Of a stretch of 64,000 nt of DNA, positions 10,355 through 42,439 are shown piece after piece (within the stretch, counting starts at the first letter, position 1; the number at the start of each line of letters is the position of its first letter). A model generated the notes under the pieces. The model searched no databases, was not told where the DNA came from, and worked only from the letters and a program-made list of their open reading frames with translations. Location of the stretch: NCBI RefSeq assembly GCF_041248615.1, contig NZ_CP158426.1, one strand, 5' to 3'. The translations under genes were made by a program, and so were the position numbers. The stretch is from Escherichia coli (GTDB taxonomy: Bacteria; Pseudomonadota; Gammaproteobacteria; Enterobacterales; Enterobacteriaceae).

Positions 10355-10732
10355 TCACTCCTGACCAAAATCTTTCCACACTAATGCATGAGACTTTGAT
10401 TTATCACCCAAAAATTTACTTACATCTTTCCAAAGTAAAGAATTGCTATCGGTCGCAGTGACTATTGCCTCTATAAGCCCTGTAGCTACAACTGTGGCCA
10501 ATTCATCATCAATCGAGACCATACCATCTTCGACATGTTTAAATATTTTTTCTCTTTCAATATCACCCATTTCATAAAAATTTTTTACAATCGTTTTTCC
10601 AATCTGAGAGAACAACATAACCACCGGTGGAGTTTCTGGATGCCAGTATTCATTAGCTAATGAGACTGTCTCAGACAAAACAGTGGAAAACGATGCCATT
10701 TTTTCTATATAATTAGCAATATATTGGTTCAT
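10355..10732 (-). CDS. putative Rhs immunity protein (cognate to Rhs C-terminal toxin)
   Basis: 125-aa ORF whose ATG overlaps the rhs stop (TAATG at 10730..10734, translational coupling); AT-rich relative to the rhs core; hairpin downstream (10299..10345). No recognisable family. Confidence 0.55.
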   Translation of the reverse strand: MNQYIANYIEKMASFSTVLSETVSLANEYWHPETPPVVMLFSQIGKTIVKNFYEMGDIEREKIFKHVEDGMVSIDDELATVVATGLIEAIVTATDSNSLLWKDVSKFLGDKSKSHALVWKDFGQE

Positions 10733-13700
10733 TACTTGCCTCCCAAAGCATTCTGTAAATCCTGAAGAACGTTTTCTGCTGCTGCTCGATCCCCTGGAGA
10801 TGCTGTTGGATTCTTATCCAACCAATCCTGTAAAGCCCTTGTATAATCCTGTGCTTTCAATACATGTCCTCTACCACCAACTTTTTCACCTGTGGCCAAT
10901 TCATAACGAACAGCATCTGCTGTGCTTCCACTTCCTACTTTTGCATTTGGCCGATAAAGATCGTCTATAATATTTTTCAAATTTGAATCTGTAACGTCAG
11001 GTTTTCCCATCTTCTGTCGCAATTCATCTTTATACCGTTCATGCTGCATACGATCTCTTGCGCTATTCTCATCTTCTGGTCCCCATCCTCCCGGGCTTCC
11101 CGTACTGCCACCACCCAGGCAGTTCTTCTCTTCCTCCGTCAAATCCTTCCCGACATTTGGATTCTCTTTTGATGAATCATCATTTCCAAACACGCTGGAA
11201 AAAGCACCATAGGGATCTCGCCAGAATTCCATTTGACTTTGTGCATTTAATAATTCGGCTTCACCCTGCATCTCCATACTTTTCTCAATCGCGTCCCCAA
11301 CAGCCTCGCGATTGTTGTATATTATTATACCACCACCAATAACCACCGTACCGACTGCCGCACCGACTAACATCCCCGGAGGGCCTCCTACCGAACCGAT
11401 CTCTGTACCTACTTCAGAACCAGTTCCCATGGCAGTTAATGCTCCTGCGCCCAACGCCGCACTTAATCCCAGCGGATCCAGCCGTTGCACCGGGTTCAGT
11501 GGATACGCATACAGGTTCCATCCCCCCTTCAGCCCAATCGGATCCTGGGTGATATACCTCCCCTGTAGCGGGTCATAGTACCGGTGACGGTTGTAGTACA
11601 GCCCCGACTCCTCATCATACTGCTGCCCCGGCAGACGGAGTGACTGTTGAAGGTGCTGCGTGCTTTCCTCTCCCAGCAGGTTTCCCCACTCGTCATACTC
11701 CCCGCGCCACGCCGTTTCCCCTTCCGGGCTGATAAGCGCCTGCGGCAGCCCACGGTGGTCACAGTGGTAAAGATGAAGTTTCCTCTCCGGGATGTATTCC
11801 GCCTCCAGTTGCGCCGCCATCTGTTCCGCCGTCAACCCACACTGTGCAAGCCACTGCTGGCTTTCTTCACTCACGCTGCCCTGCCGCAGTTCCCGCTCCA
11901 GCCTCCCCAGCATCACCGCCAGCTCCGCCGGTAGCGTCACACCCGTGTCCTCCTGCAACACCTCCGCCAGGCTACGGTGCCGCGCCTTCGCCTGTTCGCC
12001 ATTCTCTGTTTCGATTCTCAGGAGCGGCGTGAAGCTCCCCGGCTGGTATACCGTCTGGATACGCGTGGTGTCGGTCTGTACCGTCGTCAGCCTGTCGCCG
12101 TCCCACCCGTACCAGGTCACCTCCGGTTTACGCGACAGCGACATCCACCCCGTCAGGTCACGCTCCCGCCGCCACACCCGTTTTCCCGTCCGGCGGCCCA
12201 GCGGGTCATAGAGGTAGCGGCTCTCCACCTGTGGCTCGCCGTGCTGTATCCGCGTGTAGAACACCAGGCGGTGCTGGCTGTCGTAATGGTAGTGGTGCGT
12301 CCGCTCGTCGTGCATCCGTATCACCCCTTCCGGGATACGGTCCGTCTTCTCCGCCAGCCTGCCGTATTCATCGTAGCGGTAGACATAGTGCGCATCTTCC
12401 GTGATGCGGTTATCCGGCCACGCCGTGAAGGTGCTGTCCGGGTGCAGTTCCGGGTCCGGCAGCCGGTTTCCTGCCGGGTCCGTCGCATACGGGATATCAA
12501 TGTCCAGGTTCGCTGCCGTGGTGTGGACGCCCGTCAGCCTTCCCGTGTCGCTGTAACGGTACTCCCGGCTCTCCTGCGGGCCGCTGATGCGAATTAGCTG
12601 TCCGTTGTCGTTCCAGTCGTAGTCACGGTCAAGCTGCGGAAGGTTCAGGTGCCTGCTCCGGAGCTGGCCGCTGGTATTCCAGGCGGTGGCAAGCTCATAT
12701 GCCTCCCCGCCGAAGCTGCGGGCCGTCTCACGGTGCAGCCGGTCCCGCGTGTACTCGACCAGTGGCGTACCACCCAGCTTCATTCCCGCAAGATAACCGC
12801 TGCCATACGTCAGCCACTCCACCGGCGGCAGACCGTCCGGCTCCTGACGGGTCGCCAGCCCCTGTTCGCTGTACGCGTGCTTCGTCTCATGCTCCCACAG
12901 CATCTCCCCCGTCTCCGGGTTCTCCACCGTCTGCCGTTCGCCCGTCAGGCGGCCTTTATCGTCGTGGCCGTAGTGGACCGCCACACGGTGGCCTTCGCTG
13001 ATATGGCTGATTTCTGTCAGCCAGCCGTGCTCATCATACTGCCACTGCTCCGCCGGGTCGCCGTTCACCGTCCGGTGCGTGATGCGGTCCGACGCATCGT
13101 AATGCCAGAGGGTGATAAGCCCCTCATCTTCACTCTGCGTGAGTTTTCCGGTCAGGTCATAGTGGTAACGTTGCGTCCGCCCGTCAAAGCCGCGCTGCTC
13201 CGTCAGCCTGTCCACCGGGTCATACCGGAACGTGGACTGGCTGCCGTTCTCGTTGGTCAGCACGGTGGTGCGACCGGCGGCGTCATACCCCATGCTGCGC
13301 GTCAGTCCGCCTTCCGTCACACTCACCGGACGCCCGCGTTTATCATATTCGATGGTGCTGCGTTTACCGTCCGGTGATATCGTCGCTGTCAGGTCGCCTG
13401 CGGTGCTGTACTCATAACGGGTTTCACGCCCCTGCGCATCCTTCTGACTGACCAGTTGGCCACGCGGGTTATAACTGCTGTAAGTGCTGATGCCTTCTTC
13501 CCGGTGAACGGCGATTTGTTGACCGTACCGGTCATACTCATACCGCGTCGTGTACCCCGAGCAGTCCGTAAACGCCTGAAGCTGACCGTACCGGTTTCGC
13601 GTTATTCTCCGCATCACCCCGGTTCCGTCTTCCACCGCGCCGGGCAGGCTACTGCGGGGGGAGTCATAAAACCAGCGCGTAATGTTACCGTTGCGCGAGA

Positions 13701-15231
13701 TCTCTTCCGCCAGCCTGCCCTGACGGTCATATTTCCGGCTGCTGCGCAGCCCGTCCGGGTACGTCACTGACGTCAGTTGCAACTGGTTGTTGTAACCATA
13801 CCGTACCGTCCTGCCGTCCGGAAGTATCACTGAAGTCAGCTTTCCAGACGCCATATGCAGCCGATACTCCGTCCGCCGTCCCGCCGCATCCGTCTGCGCC
13901 TTCAGCCTCCCCGCCTCATCATACTCGCTGCGGGTGATGCTCCCGTCCGCATGTTCCTTCTTCACCACCCGCTTCAGGCCACCTTCGCCTTCCGTGTACA
14001 GCACCTCCCGCCTGTTCAGGCTGTCCGTGATGATTACCCGGCTCTCTCCGTACTCAAAGCGGTAGTCCAGCCCCTCCGGGTTGACCTGCTCCGTCACCCG
14101 GCCGGTATCATCATACCGGTAGCGGCTCTCCGGCCTCCCCGCATAATGGTGCGCCACCATCCGCCCGGCGTGCGCCACATCATAAGTAACCCCGCGCACC
14201 TGCGTCCCGCTGCGGTCATACACCGCCCGCAGTTCTCCGCTGGCCGTGTACGTGTAGCGCGCCAGCGGCGCAGTCGGCTGTTCATCCGGGTATGCCGGGT
14301 CGTGTGTCAGCCACACCGCCTCCAGCCGGATACCGTTATCGGCACCGTATTCTGTACCGACGGGCAGCGTATCGGGGAAAACCTGAGAAGAGGAAACAGA
14401 ACGGGGACCGGCAGGGGAAGATAAGGAAGACTCGCGCTGTTTACGGGACGCTTCCGCCCGCTGTGACTGTGTGGTCAGCGCCAGGTGAAAACAGCGGCCC
14501 GCGCCGTCCGTCACCCTGGTGATTTCACCAGCCAGTTCGCCTGCGGCCTCGCGGTGGAAAGTCAGTGAACGCCCGAAGCCGTCCACCACGCCCGTCAGCA
14601 CCCGGTATGCGGGTGGCTCCGGCGGCAACACCTCGTCCACCCCCGGCACCCGCTCCGGCCAGCCGAGTACCAGCCACTGCCCGGTTGTGCTGACAGCCAT
14701 CATATAGGTGTGTGGACTCAGGCGGACCGCTTCCGGCAACGCCCGCCAGAGCCGGGCCAGCGGGTGGCCTTTCTGCTGTTTCAGCACCCCGCCCCGCGCC
14801 AGCCAGAACGACTCGCTGCGGCTGTAGCTTATCTCGCCGGGAAACAGCGGCTCAAAGTGAATGCTCCTGCCGCCGCTGTCGTTGAGTATCAGGCCTTCAT
14901 CGCGTATCTGTAAGCGGATATCGAAGGGGGCTTTCCAGCCGGGACCAAACACCCCCACCGGCGCGGGCGTCCTGGTCCGGTAGCTGCTGTAGGCGCGGAA
15001 AAGAACAAACGGCAGCGGGCCGGACAGTGCCAGGTCGGTTTCAGCAGGCAGCACCTTCGCTCCCAGCAGCGGGTTTACCGGATTACCCTTCTGCTCCTCT
15101 ATCGGGCTGTTGGGACATACCGAACAGGCCACACCGGTTGGCGCACCTATCAGCACCCCTGCTGAACCCTGCACAATATCCAGTCCCTTGCGGGTCATGT
15201 CACCCTGCCGCGCCGCCGGTTTTCCACCCAT
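10732..15231 (-). CDS. PAAR-domain Rhs-family T6SS effector with divergent C-terminal toxin domain
   Basis: 1499-aa ORF; N-terminal PAAR-like domain ([16 protein letters not shown]...), many YD/RHS repeats (RYxYD), Rhs core end with DPxGL motif ([27 protein letters not shown]), then a 243-aa C-terminal tail (about 10735..11463). Confidence 0.9.
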
Positions 15232-15306
15232 GAATCAATTCCTTCTGCTTTTAATATGGTTTATCTGGTCACTGCACCAGTTCCGTTTTAATTTTTTGCA
15301 CCTGAC

Positions 15307-17448
15307 TCAAAATTGCCGCATATCCGGCATTCCGGGGGGTAAATCTTTCGGCACAGGCGCATCCGGTACAGGTTGTGTGGCACCACAGTTCCAGTTAATC
15401 ACCGGCGCATCACCGTTCACATCCGACTCTCCTTCCAGATGAATGTGCGTACCATTGAGAAATATGCTTCCGTCCTTCGTCAGCACCAACCTTGCCTTAC
15501 CGCAGCAGAGTTCCAGATGCTCACCGGCAGAATAAACTGCTGTTTGTCCGGTGTTTTCCTTCATCGTCTTGCCCACCGAGAAGGTGACGTTATTCCCTAC
15601 ATTGACGCTGTAGCCCATTCCCACCATCAGTGATTTATGCAGCCCTACCTGTGAGGACTGCAACAACGCCACCGAGGTATTCATGATGCCGCCTACCGTC
15701 GTCTGGTAAGCCACGCCCACCGTCAGCGCACGAATGATCCCCACCTTTTCAACCTGGTTTGAACCCACTTTGACAATCTGGTTGCTGCCTACCGTTTCCA
15801 CCTGGTTGACACCAACCGTCTGTATCTGATTAACGCCAATGTTCTGGATCTGGTTATTGGTAACGGTGATCGCCTGGTTGTTACCTATTTTTTCGGCATG
15901 GTTGTTTATCACATCCGTGGTGCGGTTATTCAGCACCTCGGTGTTCATGTTCTTCTGCGCGTGGATGTAGACCTGTTCTTTCCCTGTCGCATCGTCAAAC
16001 TTCAGTTCATTAAACCCGCTGCCCTTATAGGTTTTCGAACGAATGGTCATCTGCGTCTTTGTTCCCGGCAGGCTGCCGGGGGTGCGGTTTTCCTGGTGGT
16101 AGGTACGCCCCATAATAATCGGCTGGTCCGGATCGCCGTTGAGGAAGTCCACAATGACTTCCTGACCCACACGCGGTATCGCCAGGTTGCCAAAGCCGGT
16201 GCCTGCCCACGCCTGTGCCACACGGATCCAGCATGAACTGTCCTGGTTTGACGGGTTATAGCGGTCCCAGTTAAATTTCACCCGCACGCGGCCATGTTCA
16301 TCACAGAAGATTTCTTCTCCTGCCGGTCCCGTCACGACGGCGCTCTGCGGGCCGTCCACCAGCGGTTTCAGCAACGGCTGTGGCCGCCATGTTCTGTCTG
16401 CCGGTATTACCGCAAAGTGGTTATTCAGCGTGGTACCTGAACCCCTGCGTCCCGGCACCGCCTGCGGCTGCTCGCCGTGCAGTTCACTTGCCACCACCTG
16501 CCATTCCCGGTTCAGGTTCGCCTGCGGATGCCCCGTCAGCGCAATTCGCCGTCCCGGCCATATCTCCGGCGAACGGCTTGTTCCGCGCGCCACTTCTGCG
16601 TTGTTTCGCCAGCCATCCATCTGCCAGCAGGCAAAGTTCTGCCCGTGGGCACCCTTGAAACGTCCGGGGTAGTCATACACTTCATACTGTGTGCGCTGGT
16701 AATCCTGGTGCTGGCCTTCCTGATCAAAACGCCCTGCCCAGCCGGGTCGTTTAAAGGTGTAGTCTTTGGTCACCACGGAAGATGGGCGGATTTGTGCGCT
16801 GTAGAGGAACTGGCTGATGCATAGGGTGCTCACCTCGGTACGGGTGTTCGGATTCCAGGGGATCTCAAAGGACTCCGGCAGATAACGCACGGTGTCGCAC
16901 AGGACCAGGCTCTGGTCGGTACTTTTTTGCGCGTGCTCCTCATAAAAGAAGATGCCTTCCTCCGCCGCCATCCGGCACAGGAAATCGTAATCGGTTTCGC
17001 CGTACTGGACACAAAACTCACGGGAAGGATGCGGCTCGCTGAACAGCGGACTCCACTCGGTCACCCCGTTTTCTTTCAGGATCGTCGCGAGTATGCTTTC
17101 GATGTCCTCATTCTGGAAGATACGGAAGTTCTGGCGCAGCCCTGTGCGCCACAGCGGTGGGCACACCTTCATGCTGTACAGCATCTGGTTTTTGTCGTTC
17201 TCCCCCAGTTCAAACCAGGTCACCACACCTTTCACCCGGCGCTGTACGTCATCGCCCTGCCATACCGTCAGGTAGGCCATTTTGTCCAGCACCTGCGCAA
17301 ATTCAAGGGAGAGAAACTGCTGGCTGACCAGAGAGAGATCGAGGGAAAAGAGCGAAGAGAGTGACTGGTTCAGATGAAAGGAGACCACCGCAAACGCGTC
17401 CGGTGGCAGGCCGTCCACTTCCAGCGTGAAACGTAATCCGGTTGACAT
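15307..17448 (-). CDS. vgrG: T6SS spike protein VgrG (TssI)
   Basis: 713-aa ORF MSTGLRFTLEVDGLP... with gp27/gp5-like regions and C-terminal beta-helix repeat run (VGxNQ repeats). Confidence 0.92.
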   Translation of the reverse strand: MSTGLRFTLEVDGLPPDAFAVVSFHLNQSLSSLFSLDLSLVSQQFLSLEFAQVLDKMAYLTVWQGDDVQRRVKGVVTWFELGENDKNQMLYSMKVCPPLWRTGLRQNFRIFQNEDIESILATILKENGVTEWSPLFSEPHPSREFCVQYGETDYDFLCRMAAEEGIFFYEEHAQKSTDQSLVLCDTVRYLPESFEIPWNPNTRTEVSTLCISQFLYSAQIRPSSVVTKDYTFKRPGWAGRFDQEGQHQDYQRTQYEVYDYPGRFKGAHGQNFACWQMDGWRNNAEVARGTSRSPEIWPGRRIALTGHPQANLNREWQVVASELHGEQPQAVPGRRGSGTTLNNHFAVIPADRTWRPQPLLKPLVDGPQSAVVTGPAGEEIFCDEHGRVRVKFNWDRYNPSNQDSSCWIRVAQAWAGTGFGNLAIPRVGQEVIVDFLNGDPDQPIIMGRTYHQENRTPGSLPGTKTQMTIRSKTYKGSGFNELKFDDATGKEQVYIHAQKNMNTEVLNNRTTDVINNHAEKIGNNQAITVTNNQIQNIGVNQIQTVGVNQVETVGSNQIVKVGSNQVEKVGIIRALTVGVAYQTTVGGIMNTSVALLQSSQVGLHKSLMVGMGYSVNVGNNVTFSVGKTMKENTGQTAVYSAGEHLELCCGKARLVLTKDGSIFLNGTHIHLEGESDVNGDAPVINWNCGATQPVPDAPVPKDLPPGMPDMRQF

Positions 17449-28412: not shown

Positions 28413-31232
28413 ATGATCCAGATTGATCTTCCCACGCTGGTAAAACGGCTTAACCTGTTCTCCCGCCAGGCGCTGGAGATGGCCGCCTCTGAATGTATGA
28501 GCCAGCAGGCAGCGGAAATTACCGTCAGCCATGTGCTTATTCAGATGCTCGCCATGCCACGCAGCGACCTGCGGGTTATTACCCGCCAGGGCGATATTGG
28601 CATGGAAGAGTTGCGCCAGGCGCTGACGGTGGAGAACTACACAACTGCCCGTTCTGCGGACAGCTACCCGGCATTTTCCCCGATGCTGGTTGAGTGGCTG
28701 AAAGAGGGCTGGCTGCTGGCGTCGGCTGAGATGCAGCACAGCGAATTGCGTGGCGGCGTGTTGCTGCTGGCCCTGCTGCATTCGCCGCTGCGTTATATAC
28801 CGCCTGCTGCCGCCCGGTTGTTGACCGGCATTAACCGTGACCGTCTGCAACAGGACTTTGTACAGTGGACACAGGAGTCGGCGGAATCAGTCGTGCCGGA
28901 TGCAGACGGTAAAGTCGCAGGCACACTGACGGACGCTGCTGACACCCTGCTTGCCCGCTACGCCAAAAACATGACCGCAGACGCCCGTAACGGCAGGCTT
29001 GACCCGGTACTGTGCCGCGACCACGAAATCGACCTGATGATCGACATTCTCTGCCGCCGCCGCAAGAACAACCCGGTGGTGGTGGGCGAAGCAGGCGTGG
29101 GTAAAAGTGCCTTAATCGAAGGGCTGGCGCTGCGCATCGTGGCAGGCCAGGTGCCGGACAAACTGAAAAACACCGATATCATGACCCTTGACCTAGGCGC
29201 ATTGCAGGCCGGGGCGTCGGTGAAGGGCGAATTCGAAAAACGCTTCAAGGGGCTGATGGCGGAGGTCATTTCCTCTCCGGTGCCGGTCATTCTGTTTATT
29301 GACGAAGCACATACCCTGATTGGCGCGGGCAACCAGCAGGGCGGGCTGGATATCTCCAACCTGCTCAAACCGGCGCTGGCGCGCGGCGAACTGAAAACCA
29401 TCGCCGCCACCACCTGGAGCGAATACAAAAAATACTTCGAGAAAGATGCCGCCCTGTCGCGCCGCTTCCAGCTGGTGAAGGTCAGCGAACCCAACGCCGC
29501 CGAAGCCACCATTATTCTGCGTGGTCTGTCGGCGGTCTATGAACAGTCTCACGGCGTGCTGATTGATGATGACGCCTTGCAGGCCGCAGCAACGCTGAGC
29601 GAACGTTATCTCTCCGGGCGTCAGTTGCCGGACAAAGCCATTGATGTGCTGGATACCGCCTGCGCCCGCGTCGCCATTAACCTTTCCTCGCCGCCGAAGC
29701 AAATCTCGGCGCTGACCACTCTGAGCCACCAGCAGGAGGCGGAAATTCGCCAGCTTGAGCGCGAGCTTCGCATCGGGCTGCGTACCAACACCTCACGGAT
29801 GACCGAGGTGCTGGTGCAGTACGATGAAACGCTGACGGCGCTGGATGAACTGGAAGCGGCCTGGCATCAGCAGCAGGCGCTGGTCCGGGAGATTATCGCG
29901 CTGCGCCAGCAGTTGCTGGGCGTGGCAGAAGACGATGCGGCGTCGTTGCCGGACGCAGATGCCGCGGAGGATACGCCGCCAGAGTCAGAGTCAGAGTCAG
30001 AGTCAGAGTCAGAGTCAGAGTCAGAGTCAGAGTCAGAGTCAGAGTCAGAACAGGATAATACCGGTGCCGTACCGGCTGATGAGGCCGACAGAGAACAGCC
30101 GGAAGAGACCGCTGAAACAGTTTCCCCGGTACAGCGGCTGGCCCAGCTCACTGCCGAACTGGACGCCCTGCATAACGACCGGTTGCTGGTCTCCCCGCAC
30201 GTCGATAAAAAACAGATTGCGGCGGTGATTGCCGAATGGACCGGCGTGCCGCTCAACCGCCTGTCGCAGAATGAAATGTCGGTCATCACCGACCTGCCGA
30301 AATTGCTGGGCGACACCATCAAAGGCCAAGACCTGGCGATTGCCAGCCTGCATAAGCATCTACTGACCGCACGCGCCGACCTGCGTCTTCCGGGACGCCC
30401 GCTCGGTGCGTTCCTGCTGGCTGGCCCCAGCGGTGTGGGTAAAACCGAAACCGTCCTGCAACTGGCAGAGCTGCTCTACGGCGGTCGCCAGTACCTGACC
30501 ACCATCAATATGTCCGAATTCCAGGAGAAACACACCGTCTCGCGGCTGATTGGTTCGCCTCCGGGCTACGTTGGCTACGGTGAAGGCGGCGTACTGACCG
30601 AAGCGATTCGCCAGAAACCCTACTCGGTAGTACTGCTCGATGAAGTGGAAAAAGCGCACCCGGATGTGCTCAACCTGTTCTACCAGTCGTTCGATAAGGG
30701 CGAAATGGCAGACGGTGAAGGCCGCCTGATTGACTGCAAAAATATCGTCTTCTTCCTGACGTCCAACCTCGGCTACCAGGTAATAGTCGAGCACGCCGAT
30801 GACCCGGAAACCATGCAGGAAGAACTGTATCCGGTGCTGGCCGACTTCTTCAAACCTGCCCTGCTGGCGCGTATGGAAGTGGTGCCGTATCTGCCGCTGT
30901 CGAAAGAGACGCTCGCCACCATTATCGCCGGAAAACTGGCCCGTCTGGATAACGTGCTGCGCAGTCGCTTTGGTGCAGAAGTGGTCATTGAACCGGAAGT
31001 GACGGACGAAATCATGAGCCGCGTCACCCGCGCGGAAAACGGCGCGAGGATGCTGGAATCGGTCATCGATGGCGACATGCTACCGCCGCTCTCGCTGCTG
31101 CTGTTGCAGAAAATGGCGGCTAACACGGCGATTGCCCGGATTCGGTTGTCGGCGGTGGACGACGCATTTACGGCAGACGTGGAAGATGCTCAGAACGACG
31201 AGTCCGTCACAAAGGATGAAACGGTTTTATGA
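28413..31232 (+). CDS. clpV: T6SS AAA+ ATPase ClpV (TssH)
   Basis: ORF 28299..31232 trimmed to ATG 28413 (MIQIDLPTLVKRLN...); two Walker A motifs (GEAGVGKS, GPSGVGKT); Clp N-domain. Contains (ES)11 repeat. Confidence 0.92.
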   Translation: MIQIDLPTLVKRLNLFSRQALEMAASECMSQQAAEITVSHVLIQMLAMPRSDLRVITRQGDIGMEELRQALTVENYTTARSADSYPAFSPMLVEWLKEGWLLASAEMQHSELRGGVLLLALLHSPLRYIPPAAARLLTGINRDRLQQDFVQWTQESAESVVPDADGKVAGTLTDAADTLLARYAKNMTADARNGRLDPVLCRDHEIDLMIDILCRRRKNNPVVVGEAGVGKSALIEGLALRIVAGQVPDKLKNTDIMTLDLGALQAGASVKGEFEKRFKGLMAEVISSPVPVILFIDEAHTLIGAGNQQGGLDISNLLKPALARGELKTIAATTWSEYKKYFEKDAALSRRFQLVKVSEPNAAEATIILRGLSAVYEQSHGVLIDDDALQAAATLSERYLSGRQLPDKAIDVLDTACARVAINLSSPPKQISALTTLSHQQEAEIRQLERELRIGLRTNTSRMTEVLVQYDETLTALDELEAAWHQQQALVREIIALRQQLLGVAEDDAASLPDADAAEDTPPESESESESESESESESESESESEQDNTGAVPADEADREQPEETAETVSPVQRLAQLTAELDALHNDRLLVSPHVDKKQIAAVIAEWTGVPLNRLSQNEMSVITDLPKLLGDTIKGQDLAIASLHKHLLTARADLRLPGRPLGAFLLAGPSGVGKTETVLQLAELLYGGRQYLTTINMSEFQEKHTVSRLIGSPPGYVGYGEGGVLTEAIRQKPYSVVLLDEVEKAHPDVLNLFYQSFDKGEMADGEGRLIDCKNIVFFLTSNLGYQVIVEHADDPETMQEELYPVLADFFKPALLARMEVVPYLPLSKETLATIIAGKLARLDNVLRSRFGAEVVIEPEVTDEIMSRVTRAENGARMLESVIDGDMLPPLSLLLLQKMAANTAIARIRLSAVDDAFTADVEDAQNDESVTKDETVL
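29981..30048 (+). repeat. perfect hexanucleotide microsatellite (AGAGTC/GAGTCA)x11 within clpV, encoding (Glu-Ser)11
   Basis: Direct read of 11 perfect tandem 6-nt units, in frame. Confidence 0.95.
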
Positions 31233-41707: not shown

Positions 41708-42439
41708 TTATGCCCGCCAGAGGCAGCTTCCGCCCTTTTTCTGCACCAGATCGAGACGGGCTTCATGTGCCGCAAGCTCTTCATCTGTCGCAAAAACAAC
41801 GCGTAACTTACTTGCCTGACGCACAATGCGCTGAATTGTTGTTTCACCTTGTTGCTGTTGTGTCTCTCCTTCCATCGCAAAAGCCATCGACGTTTGACCA
41901 CCAGTCATCGCCAGATAAACTTCCGCAAGGATCTGGGCATCGAGTAATGCCCCGTGCAACGTTCGTTTACTGTTATCTATTTCGTAGCGGGCACATAACG
42001 CATCGAGGCTGTTGCGCTTACCGGGAAACATTTTCCTCGCCACCGCAAGGCTATCGGTGACCTTACAGAAGGTATTGGTCTTCGGAATATCGCGCTTAAG
42101 CAACGAAAACTCGTAGTCCATAAAGCCGATATCGAACGCTGCGTTATGGATCACCAACTCCGCGCCGCGAATATAGTCCATGAACTCATCGGCTACTTCG
42201 GCAAACGTGGGCTTATCGAGCAAAAATTCATCGGCAATACCATGTACGCCAAAGGCTTCCGGATCCACCAGCCGATCGGGTTTGAGATAAACATGGAAGT
42301 TATTGCCCGTCAGGCGACGGTTCACCACTTCAACGGCACCAATCTCAATGATCTTGTGGCCTTCATAGTGCGCGCCAATCTGGTTCATACCGGTGGTTTC
42401 GGTATCGAGAACGATCTGGCGTGTAATTGCAGTGCTCAT
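41708..42439 (-). CDS. dnaQ: DNA polymerase III epsilon subunit (3'-5' proofreading exonuclease)
   Basis: ORF trimmed to [19 protein letters not shown]..., 243 aa; exo motifs (DTETTG, H..HGALLDA). Confidence 0.92.

What the first reader, a model, noticed from the sequence alone, without database searches (positions are those of the whole stretch)
29981..30048. In-frame hexanucleotide microsatellite in clpV encoding an (ES)11 acidic tract
Eleven perfect AGAGTC repeats lie in the region between the two AAA+ modules of ClpV, giving PESESESESESESESESESESESEQ. A perfect 6-nt repeat of this length is prone to slippage, and every slip preserves the frame, so it is a likely length-variable site that could tune ClpV linker length or charge.
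Basis: seen in the sequence. Interest (0 to 1): 0.5.

Follow-up and report, generated by a model that had tools for sequence, protein, structure and literature searches.

The report
Known variable repeat inside E. coli clpV
The eleven-copy six-base repeat in the E. coli type VI secretion ATPase gene is real and varies from about 1 to 40 copies between strains, but it is already a published strain-typing marker (CVN016) and sits in a floppy surface loop where length changes probably matter little.

Summary
Window 29982-30047 is a perfect (GAGTCA)11 array, in frame in tssH/clpV (28413-31232, 939 aa), and it encodes (Glu-Ser)11 at residues 524-545.

The predicted length variability is also confirmed. 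About half of 5,426 complete E. coli genomes carry the locus. Sequenced or size-inferred alleles run from 0-1 to 40 copies, with at least 31 distinct sizes. Flanks that are 99.9-100% identical carry 11, 12, 13, 14, 18, 31 and 40 copies.

This is not new. Published generic E. coli MLVA primers match the window exactly at 29689-29707 and 30211-30232. The amplicon is 478+6n bp, which is the published size formula of locus CVN016 (Lobersli et al. 2012).

An AlphaFold2 model and an alignment to ClpB place the tract in a disordered, strongly acidic loop at the distal end of the middle-domain coiled coil. In 121 diverse ClpV homologues the equivalent segment is 8-79 aa long.

All repeat units use the same codons, many lineages and E. 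albertii have a single unit, and a 3-copy allele complements a clpV deletion in the literature. The best reading is a slippage-driven, largely neutral microsatellite in a permissive loop. A tuning function is untested and unlikely. Interest is low.

The parts
29982..30047 (+). Perfect (GAGTCA)11 hexanucleotide array, in frame, encoding (Glu-Ser)11 at residues 524-545 of TssH. The TRF bounds are 29980-30049.
28413..31232 (+). tssH/clpV coding sequence (939 aa plus stop), the type VI secretion AAA+ ATPase.
   Evidence: TIGR03345 scores 1119 bits against a cutoff of 885. Pfam finds AAA, AAA_lid_9, AAA_2 and ClpB_D2-small. The N-domain matches V. cholerae ClpV-N 3zri at E 2.5e-33. RefSeq CDS lengths in orthologues agree.
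29689..29707 (+). Exact match to the published MLVA primer CGCCGCCGAAGCAAATCTC. This is the upstream primer site of locus CVN016.
30211..30232 (-). Exact match to the published MLVA primer GCAATCACCGCCGCAATCTGTT. This is the downstream primer site. The amplicon 29689-30232 is 544 bp, which equals 478 + 11x6.
29967..30125 (+). Region encoding the predicted disordered acidic loop (residues 519-571) that contains the ES tract. pLDDT is below 50 for residues 520-563.
   Evidence: AF2 model. Net charge is -25 over residues 502-576. There is no counterpart in ClpB 1qvr.
29697..30173 (+). Region encoding the middle (M) domain coiled coil: helices 429-453, 457-502 and 572-587, with the loop between the last two.
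   Evidence: AF2 secondary structure and the alignment to T. thermophilus ClpB.

Best explanation
The feature is a hypermutable, in-frame hexanucleotide microsatellite, (GAGTCA)n. It lies in the chromosomal tssH/clpV gene of the E. coli type VI secretion cluster that sits next to a tRNA-Asp gene; the literature calls the O157 orthologue cluster T6SS-2. It is the published generic E. coli MLVA locus CVN016.

Copy number changes in steps by replication slippage, which is inferred. By established knowledge, six-base loops are poorly seen by MutS-dependent mismatch repair. The unit contains the palindromic core GANTC, which gives slipped strands a weak hairpin. Because the unit is two codons long, every change adds or removes Glu-Ser and never breaks the frame.

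The encoded tract lies in a disordered, strongly acidic loop at the distal end of the ClpV middle-domain coiled coil. This position differs freely in length and sequence across the ClpV family. The variation is therefore most likely tolerated, neutral or nearly so, rather than selected. The array is a mutational passenger in a permissive loop, useful as a strain marker.

Shown here: the array, its frame, its polymorphism, its identity with the MLVA locus, and the predicted disordered loop. Inferred: slippage as the mechanism, and near-neutrality.
For: Polymorphism:
- In-silico PCR on the window and 20 loci gives 478+6n bp in all 18 sequences with the same flank type, with n = 1, 2, 3, 3, 4, 5, 6, 9, 11, 11, 12, 13, 14, 17, 18, 20, 31, 40. 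A further locus has 0 ES (PEAEQ), and two have n = 1 plus a 7-aa deletion.
- Loci L001-L006 differ from the window at 0-2 of 1735 flank bases, yet carry 12-40 copies.
- Two evenly spaced samples of about 2,736 positive genomes give roughly a third with n<=1, about 40% with n = 2-8 and about a quarter with n>=9. Nei diversity is about 0.81.
- Among the 60 best matches, n = 11 (22 records), 18 (7), 19, 23, 24, and 30-40 in 28 records. Longer arrays are more variable, as expected for slippage.

Identity with the MLVA locus:
- Both primers match exactly.
- The published formula is CVN016 = (PS-478)/6, and the published CVN016 null product is 475 bp.
- Published CVN016 alleles run from 0 to 47, with many null isolates.

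Mutation-driven rather than selected:
- Every unit is GAGTCA. The only variant is one synonymous GAATCA, found in the two longest arrays.

Permissive site:
- The AF2 model has mean pLDDT 90.1, but pLDDT is below 50 at 520-563 and there is no secondary structure at 519-571.
- ClpB 1qvr aligns to residues 179-501 and 577-899 only.
- In 121 diverse ClpV homologues the equivalent segment is 8-79 aa, median 27, and low-complexity.
- E. albertii orthologues at about 95% identity have one ES and a uniform 919 aa.
- The EDL933 allele (n=3) complements a clpV deletion (PMC12981562).

Other:
- The array strand folds weakly: -8.7 kcal/mol, z = -4.9.
Against: No functional data exist for different copy numbers, so neutrality is an inference.

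In ClpB the M-domain is a regulatory element, so a loop there could in principle affect activity. Forty units add about 40 negative charges and 80 residues, which is not trivially small.

The 22 records with identical flanks and exactly 11 copies show that mid-length alleles can be stable within a clone. They could also reflect the ranking of the hit table.

Copy numbers taken from hit spans assume that all length change lies in the array. This was verified only on the 20 fetched loci.
Confidence: 0.78

Rival explanations
1. Tuning knob. Heritable, reversible changes in (Glu-Ser)n length or charge modulate ClpV activity, such as M-domain regulation, hexamer dynamics or sheath recycling. Populations would then hedge or adapt T6SS output, as shown for the tolA intragenic repeat.
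For: The tract is in frame, hypervariable, and inside the M-domain region. Each unit adds one negative charge to a loop that already has net charge -25. There is an E. coli precedent: tolA repeat number changes stress tolerance (PMC3477136). Lineages keep characteristic ranges: about 3-6 in O157, 11, 18, and 30-40.
Against: The loop is predicted to be disordered and is not conserved in length or sequence across ClpVs. Identical codons in every unit point to recent mutation rather than selection on the protein. One-copy alleles are common in intact genes and universal in E. albertii. The 3-copy allele is functional. Lineage-specific ranges are equally expected from shared descent.
Confidence: 0.14
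2. The variation arises mainly by recombination or horizontal exchange of whole tssH alleles rather than by local slippage.
For: Flank sequence types differ by up to about 8% between lineages, and the island sits next to a tRNA gene.
Against: Copy number differs among loci whose 1735 nt of flank are identical or differ by 1-2 bases. Within one flank type, sizes form a near-continuous stepwise series of 30-40. All arrays are made of the same unit.
Confidence: 0.05
3. The copy-number differences are assembly or sequencing artefacts.
For: Repeats can be miscalled, and a few near-identical genomes from one study differ by two units (PEC1020 and PEC1021).
Against: The arrays are at most 240 nt, far shorter than the reads used for complete genomes. 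The differences are always multiples of 6, with the reading frame kept. Independent PCR sizing in several laboratories finds the same locus polymorphic.
Confidence: 0.02
4. It is a phase-variation (contingency) switch that turns clpV on and off.
For: It is a long perfect simple-sequence repeat inside a virulence-associated gene.
Against: The unit is 6 nt and in frame, so slippage cannot shift the frame. All 18 alleles with the standard flank keep the frame across the array. The pseudogenes seen have other causes: a frameshift elsewhere, an internal stop, or IS1203.
Confidence: 0.01

Closest known systems
CVN016, a locus of the 10-locus generic E. coli MLVA scheme (GECM-10; Lobersli, Haugum and Lindstedt 2012)
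   Same: Both primers match the window exactly and bracket the array. The unit is 6 bp. The amplicon is 478+6n, as in the published formula, and the 475-bp null product also fits. The locus is absent from about half of isolates and is highly polymorphic.
   Different: Nothing differs structurally; it is the same locus. Two papers from one group list these primers under the name CVN017. Their 'CVN016' pair amplifies a 279-bp clpA-serW CRISPR remnant in K-12, so the three names in that table are shifted by one place. None of the MLVA papers I could read states that the locus lies in clpV or what it encodes. The original paper is not held.
The tolA intragenic tandem repeat of E. coli (Zhou, Michiels and Aertsen 2012, PMC3477136)
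   Same: It is an in-frame intragenic repeat in an E. coli envelope or secretion-related protein, with copy number that varies among isolates and lies in a linker-like region.
   Different: The tolA unit is longer, its natural range is narrower (8-16), and it lies in a structured helical domain. Repeat number was shown experimentally to alter phenotypes. No such test exists for clpV.
O157:H7 MLVA hexanucleotide VNTRs (TR1-TR7, also called O157-3, -9, -17, -19, -25, -37)
   Same: They are perfect 6-bp units with stepwise variation among closely related strains. This locus also varies within O157 (3-6 copies).
   Different: The motifs differ: AAATAG, TGGCTC, TATCTT and TGCAAA for the four I could read. 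This locus is not among those; TR5-TR7 were cut off in the output.
The ClpB/Hsp104 middle domain
   Same: The tract lies in the coiled-coil insertion between D1 and D2. ClpB 1qvr aligns on both sides of it, and the AF2 model shows the long helices.
   Different: About 75 residues (502-576) replace about 27 ClpB residues (470-496), and AF2 predicts them to be disordered. From general knowledge, not tested here: ClpV does not use the DnaK partnership that ClpB motif 2 mediates.

Membership tests
TssH/ClpV (T6SS AAA+ ATPase) | Scores above the curated cutoff of the equivalog model TIGR03345 | tested here: met
   The score is 1119 bits against a cutoff of 885. It stays at about 1120 bits with n = 1, 14 or 40.
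TssH/ClpV (T6SS AAA+ ATPase) | Two AAA+ modules with Walker motifs, plus a ClpV-type N-domain | tested here: met
   Pfam finds AAA/AAA_lid_9 and AAA_2/ClpB_D2-small. G228, G230, K231 and G674, G676, K677 are invariant in alignment A1. The N-domain matches 3zri at E 2.5e-33.
TssH/ClpV (T6SS AAA+ ATPase) | Encoded within a T6SS gene cluster | tested here: met
   The neighbours are TssK, TssL, VasI, TssA, TssM, TssF, TssC and VgrG.
TssH/ClpV (T6SS AAA+ ATPase) | Disassembles the contracted TssB/TssC sheath | not testable with these tools
   This is a biochemical or cell-biological assay. Published phenotypes and complementation of an O157 clpV deletion are indirect support.
VNTR / MLVA locus CVN016 | Head-to-tail tandem copies of a short unit | tested here: met
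   TRF reports 11.7 copies at 100% identity.
VNTR / MLVA locus CVN016 | Copy number differs among strains of the species | tested here: met
   Fetched loci carry 0-40 units. At least 31 sizes appear in the hit tables.
VNTR / MLVA locus CVN016 | The published primers anneal and the amplicon obeys the published size formula (PS-478)/6 | tested here: met
   Both primers match exactly. All 18 sequences with the standard flank give 478+6n. The formula is and the 475-bp null product.
VNTR / MLVA locus CVN016 | Name and primers as given in the original description (Lobersli et al. 2012) | not testable with these tools
   The paper is not held. The name is inferred from the size formula, from the prevalence data, and from the demonstration that the pair labelled CVN016 in secondary tables is the CRISPR locus.
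Phase-variable contingency locus | Repeat slippage shifts the reading frame or the promoter spacing, giving ON/OFF switching | tested here: not met
   The unit is 6 nt inside the CDS, and the frame is kept in every allele examined.
Functional intragenic repeat (tolA-type tuning) | The phenotype depends on repeat number in isogenic constructs | not tested
   No experiment was possible, and I found none in the literature.

The most novel reading that the evidence does not exclude
Copy number of the (Glu-Ser)n loop quantitatively sets ClpV behaviour. For example, an acidic tether on the outside of the hexamer could alter M-domain docking, sheath recycling rate or partner binding. Slippage would then give E. 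coli lineages a fast, reversible dial on T6SS-2 output, with lineage-typical settings of about 1, 3-6, 11, 18 and 30-40.
Probability: 0.1. Interest if true: 0.55.

Novelty: already known. Interest (0 to 1): 0.15.

Why it matters
As a sequence feature it is already exploited as one of the more discriminating loci of the generic E. coli MLVA scheme.

This analysis adds three modest points:
- The marker lies inside clpV and encodes a Glu-Ser tract in a disordered middle-domain loop. None of the MLVA or T6SS papers I could read says this explicitly.
- Two published primer tables carry shifted locus names.
- Long alleles cause RefSeq to name the protein 'AAA family ATPase' instead of TssH.

If repeat number did affect ClpV function, it would be a simple natural handle on T6SS activity. 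The present evidence points to tolerated, near-neutral variation.

Tried and rejected
- I compared the motif with the O157 MLVA loci TR1-TR4. The motifs do not match.
- The 2026 PLoS Pathogens paper on T6SS degeneration concerns a 28-bp repeat in tssM. It mentions clpV repeat indels only in passing, and no supplement is held.
- The primer pair labelled CVN016 has no match in the window. It maps to the clpA-serW CRISPR remnant in K-12. The serX copy of the tRNA lacks the forward primer.
- The original Lobersli 2012 paper is not held.
- The search for homologous proteins returned only Escherichia sequences. They were useless for a deep alignment but showed the single-unit state in E. albertii. 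The representative search supplied the diversity instead.
- The opposite-strand ORF across the repeat (29867-30322, minus strand, SDSDSD...) and the +2-frame ORF (29845-30228, QSQSQS...) are by-products of the repeat inside a well-supported gene, so I rejected them.
- A stable DNA hairpin as the driver is only weakly supported: the centroid structure is unfolded.
- I did not run a collection-wide scan for the array in other species or a fold search. Neither would change the verdict.
Full report
**Observation.** The window holds one conspicuous tandem array. TRF reports 29980-30049: period 6, 11.7 copies, 100% identity, score 140. No other array in the 64 kb exceeds 2.6 copies. Read in the frame of the surrounding gene, the units are GAG TCA x11 at 29982-30047, followed by GAA CAG. 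This gives ...DTPP(ES)11EQDN....

**The gene.** The enclosing ORF is TssH/ClpV. It scores 1119 bits on the equivalog model TIGR03345 (cutoff 885). Pfam finds AAA, AAA_lid_9, AAA_2 and ClpB_D2-small. The N-domain matches the V. cholerae ClpV N-domain structure 3zri. Its neighbours are TssK, TssL, VasI, TssA, TssM, TssF, TssC and VgrG. The true start is the ATG at 28413 (939 aa), which agrees with RefSeq CDS lengths. The ES tract is therefore residues 524-545. A tRNA-Asp gene at 41499-41575 and a low-GC stretch bound the cluster on the right. The O157:H7 orthologous cluster is called T6SS-2 in PMC12981562.

**Population variation.** The 1.2-kb segment around the repeat is chromosomal E. coli DNA, present in 2,737 of 5,426 complete genomes. 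I fetched 20 loci across the identity range and ran an in-silico PCR.
- All 18 sequences with the standard flank, including the window, give 478+6n bp. Copy numbers are n = 1, 2, 3, 3, 4, 5, 6, 9, 11, 11, 12, 13, 14, 17, 18, 20, 31, 40.
- One B2-type locus has PEAEQ (no ES). Two loci have one ES plus a 7-aa deletion just upstream.
- Loci L001-L006 differ from the window at only 0-2 of 1735 flank positions, yet they carry 18, 40, 31, 12, 13 and 14 units.

I then converted hit spans to copy numbers; this assumption was checked on the fetched loci.
- Two evenly spaced samples of the positive genomes give about one third with n<=1, about 40% with n = 2-8 and about one quarter with n>=9. Nei diversity is about 0.81.
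- The 60 best matches to the window allele give n = 11 (22 records), 18 (7), 19, 23 and 24. A further block of 28 records has 30, 31, 32, 33, 34, 35, 37, 39 or 40 copies.
- At least 31 allele sizes were seen in all.
- O157:H7 strains carry 3 (EDL933), 4, 5 or 6 copies.

The prediction of length variability is therefore confirmed.

**Already known.** Two papers list generic E. coli MLVA primers. The pair GCAATCACCGCCGCAATCTGTT / CGCCGCCGAAGCAAATCTC matches the window exactly at 30211-30232 (minus strand) and 29689-29707 (plus strand). It brackets the array with a 544-bp amplicon.

Those tables call the pair CVN017. However, the same paper gives the size formulas CVN016 = (PS-478)/6 and CVN017 = (PS-202)/6, and 544-478 = 66 = 11x6. 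An independent laboratory reports a 475-bp null product for CVN016. The same group also reports that CVN017 was never detected in its ESBL collection, whereas CVN016 was present in about 41% of isolates. That prevalence fits a locus found in half of all genomes.

I then mapped the pair labelled CVN016. In K-12 it amplifies 279 bp of the clpA-serW spacer, which contains two CRISPR-type repeats. That pair is therefore the CRISPR locus CCR001. The three names in those tables are shifted by one place, and the tssH repeat is CVN016 of Lobersli et al. 2012. The original paper is not held, so the name rests on this reconstruction. Published CVN016 alleles range from 0 to 47, with many null isolates and a diversity of 0.70, consistent with the genome data. 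PMC12981562 also notes in passing that clpV differs between O55:H7 and O157:H7 by an indel of repeated nucleotides.

**Where the tract sits.** HMMER aligns T. thermophilus ClpB (1qvr) to residues 179-501 and 577-899 of the query as submitted (940 aa; subtract 1 for the 939-aa numbering used elsewhere). About 75 residues stand in place of ClpB residues 470-496, inside the coiled-coil middle domain.

An AlphaFold2 model was built on 119 diverse sequences. It has mean pLDDT 90.1 and pTM 0.77. It shows helices 429-453, 457-502 and 572-587. There is no secondary structure at 519-571, and pLDDT is below 50 at 520-563. The loop is extremely acidic, with net charge -25 over residues 502-576.

In 121 full-length ClpV representatives at 38-64% identity, the equivalent segment is 8-79 aa (median 27). 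It is mostly low-complexity and rich in Asp, Glu, Ala and Pro. Many homologues align in two pieces that break exactly here. The site is thus a hypervariable, presumably solvent-exposed loop across the whole family. 'Between the two AAA+ modules' is correct, but 'distal loop of the M-domain' is more precise.

**Mechanism.**
- Shown: the array is pure at the DNA level. Every unit is GAGTCA, and the only variant is one synonymous GAATCA shared by the two longest arrays. Changes are in whole units. Longer alleles show more size diversity.
- Inferred: this is replication slippage. From general knowledge, six-base loops escape MutS-dependent repair, and VNTR mutation rates in E. coli rise with copy number.
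- The unit contains the palindromic core GANTC, and the array strand forms a weak register-shifted hairpin (-8.7 kcal/mol, z = -4.9, centroid unfolded). This may help slipped intermediates slightly.
- The one-unit state CCA GAG TCA GAA CAG already contains CAGAGT/CAGAAC, a plausible seed for the first duplication. This is an inference.

**Function.** Nothing here supports a tuning role, and several observations argue for tolerance.
- The loop is disordered and unconserved.
- Identical codons imply recent, mutation-driven expansion.
- One-unit alleles are the commonest class in E. coli, and E. albertii orthologues are uniformly 919 aa with a single ES.
- Intact annotated genes span 1 to 40 units.
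- The 3-unit EDL933 gene complements a clpV deletion.
- A frame-shifting phase switch is impossible with a 6-nt unit.

A quantitative effect of adding up to 80 residues and 40 negative charges next to a regulatory domain cannot be excluded. The tolA repeat shows that such effects exist in E. coli. I put this at about 10-15%.

**Verdict.** The locus is an already published typing marker, and the most likely biology is a near-neutral microsatellite in a permissive loop. Interest is low.

Noticed in passing
window 29826-29858 (tssH codons ~472-482); locus L021 1501-1533: A type I-E CRISPR spacer in E. coli MS 21-1 (the array between ygcE and queE) is identical to this stretch of tssH. That genome gave no other match to the gene, so the spacer targets a T6SS island the strain lacks. 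The bases next to the protospacer are not the canonical AAG PAM.
   Followed up: partly
RefSeq orthologues of window 28413-31232 (loci L001-L020): RefSeq names the protein 'type VI secretion system ATPase TssH' for alleles with up to 13 units (and one with 17). It names it 'AAA family ATPase' for 14, 18, 20, 31 and 40 units. Synthetic proteins with n = 1, 14 and 40 all score about 1120 bits on TIGR03345, but from n = 14 the match splits into two stretches. This probably breaks the naming rule.
   Followed up: yes
primer tables of PMC8143711 and PMC8261245; locus L024 1194-1472: The names CVN016, CVN017 and CCR001 appear to be shifted by one place in these two tables. The pair labelled CVN016 amplifies a 279-bp clpA-serW segment with two CRISPR-type repeats in K-12. 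The pair labelled CVN017 gives the 478+6n product that the same paper assigns to CVN016.
   Followed up: yes
locus L022 (O157 strain NZRM4169), L007, L019: tssH is inactivated in some genomes by causes unrelated to the repeat. These are an IS1203 insertion just upstream of the array, a frameshift elsewhere, and an internal stop. This fits reports that this T6SS is decaying in some lineages.
   Followed up: partly
window ~29940-29965 (residues ~510-517, 'DAASLPDA'): The loop has other indels besides the repeat. Two lineages (L019, L020) lack 7 residues just upstream of the ES tract, some B2 strains give 481-bp amplicons, and flanking loop residues differ between lineages.
   Followed up: partly
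window 36889-38295 (+): An ORF right after tssM, overlapping its end, shows only weak, sub-threshold similarity to TssA models (82 bits against a cutoff of 230). It may be a TssA-like or TagA-like accessory protein.
   Followed up: no
window 10732-17448 (-) and 38000-42000: A VgrG gene (15307-17448) is followed by a 1499-aa ORF (10732-15231) on the minus strand, at high GC (0.59-0.62). I did not test this ORF; by position it may be an Rhs-type effector. A low-GC (0.39) stretch ends at tRNA-Asp 41499-41575 and looks like the island boundary. rRNA-operon tRNAs lie at 49.7-53.3 kb.
   Followed up: no
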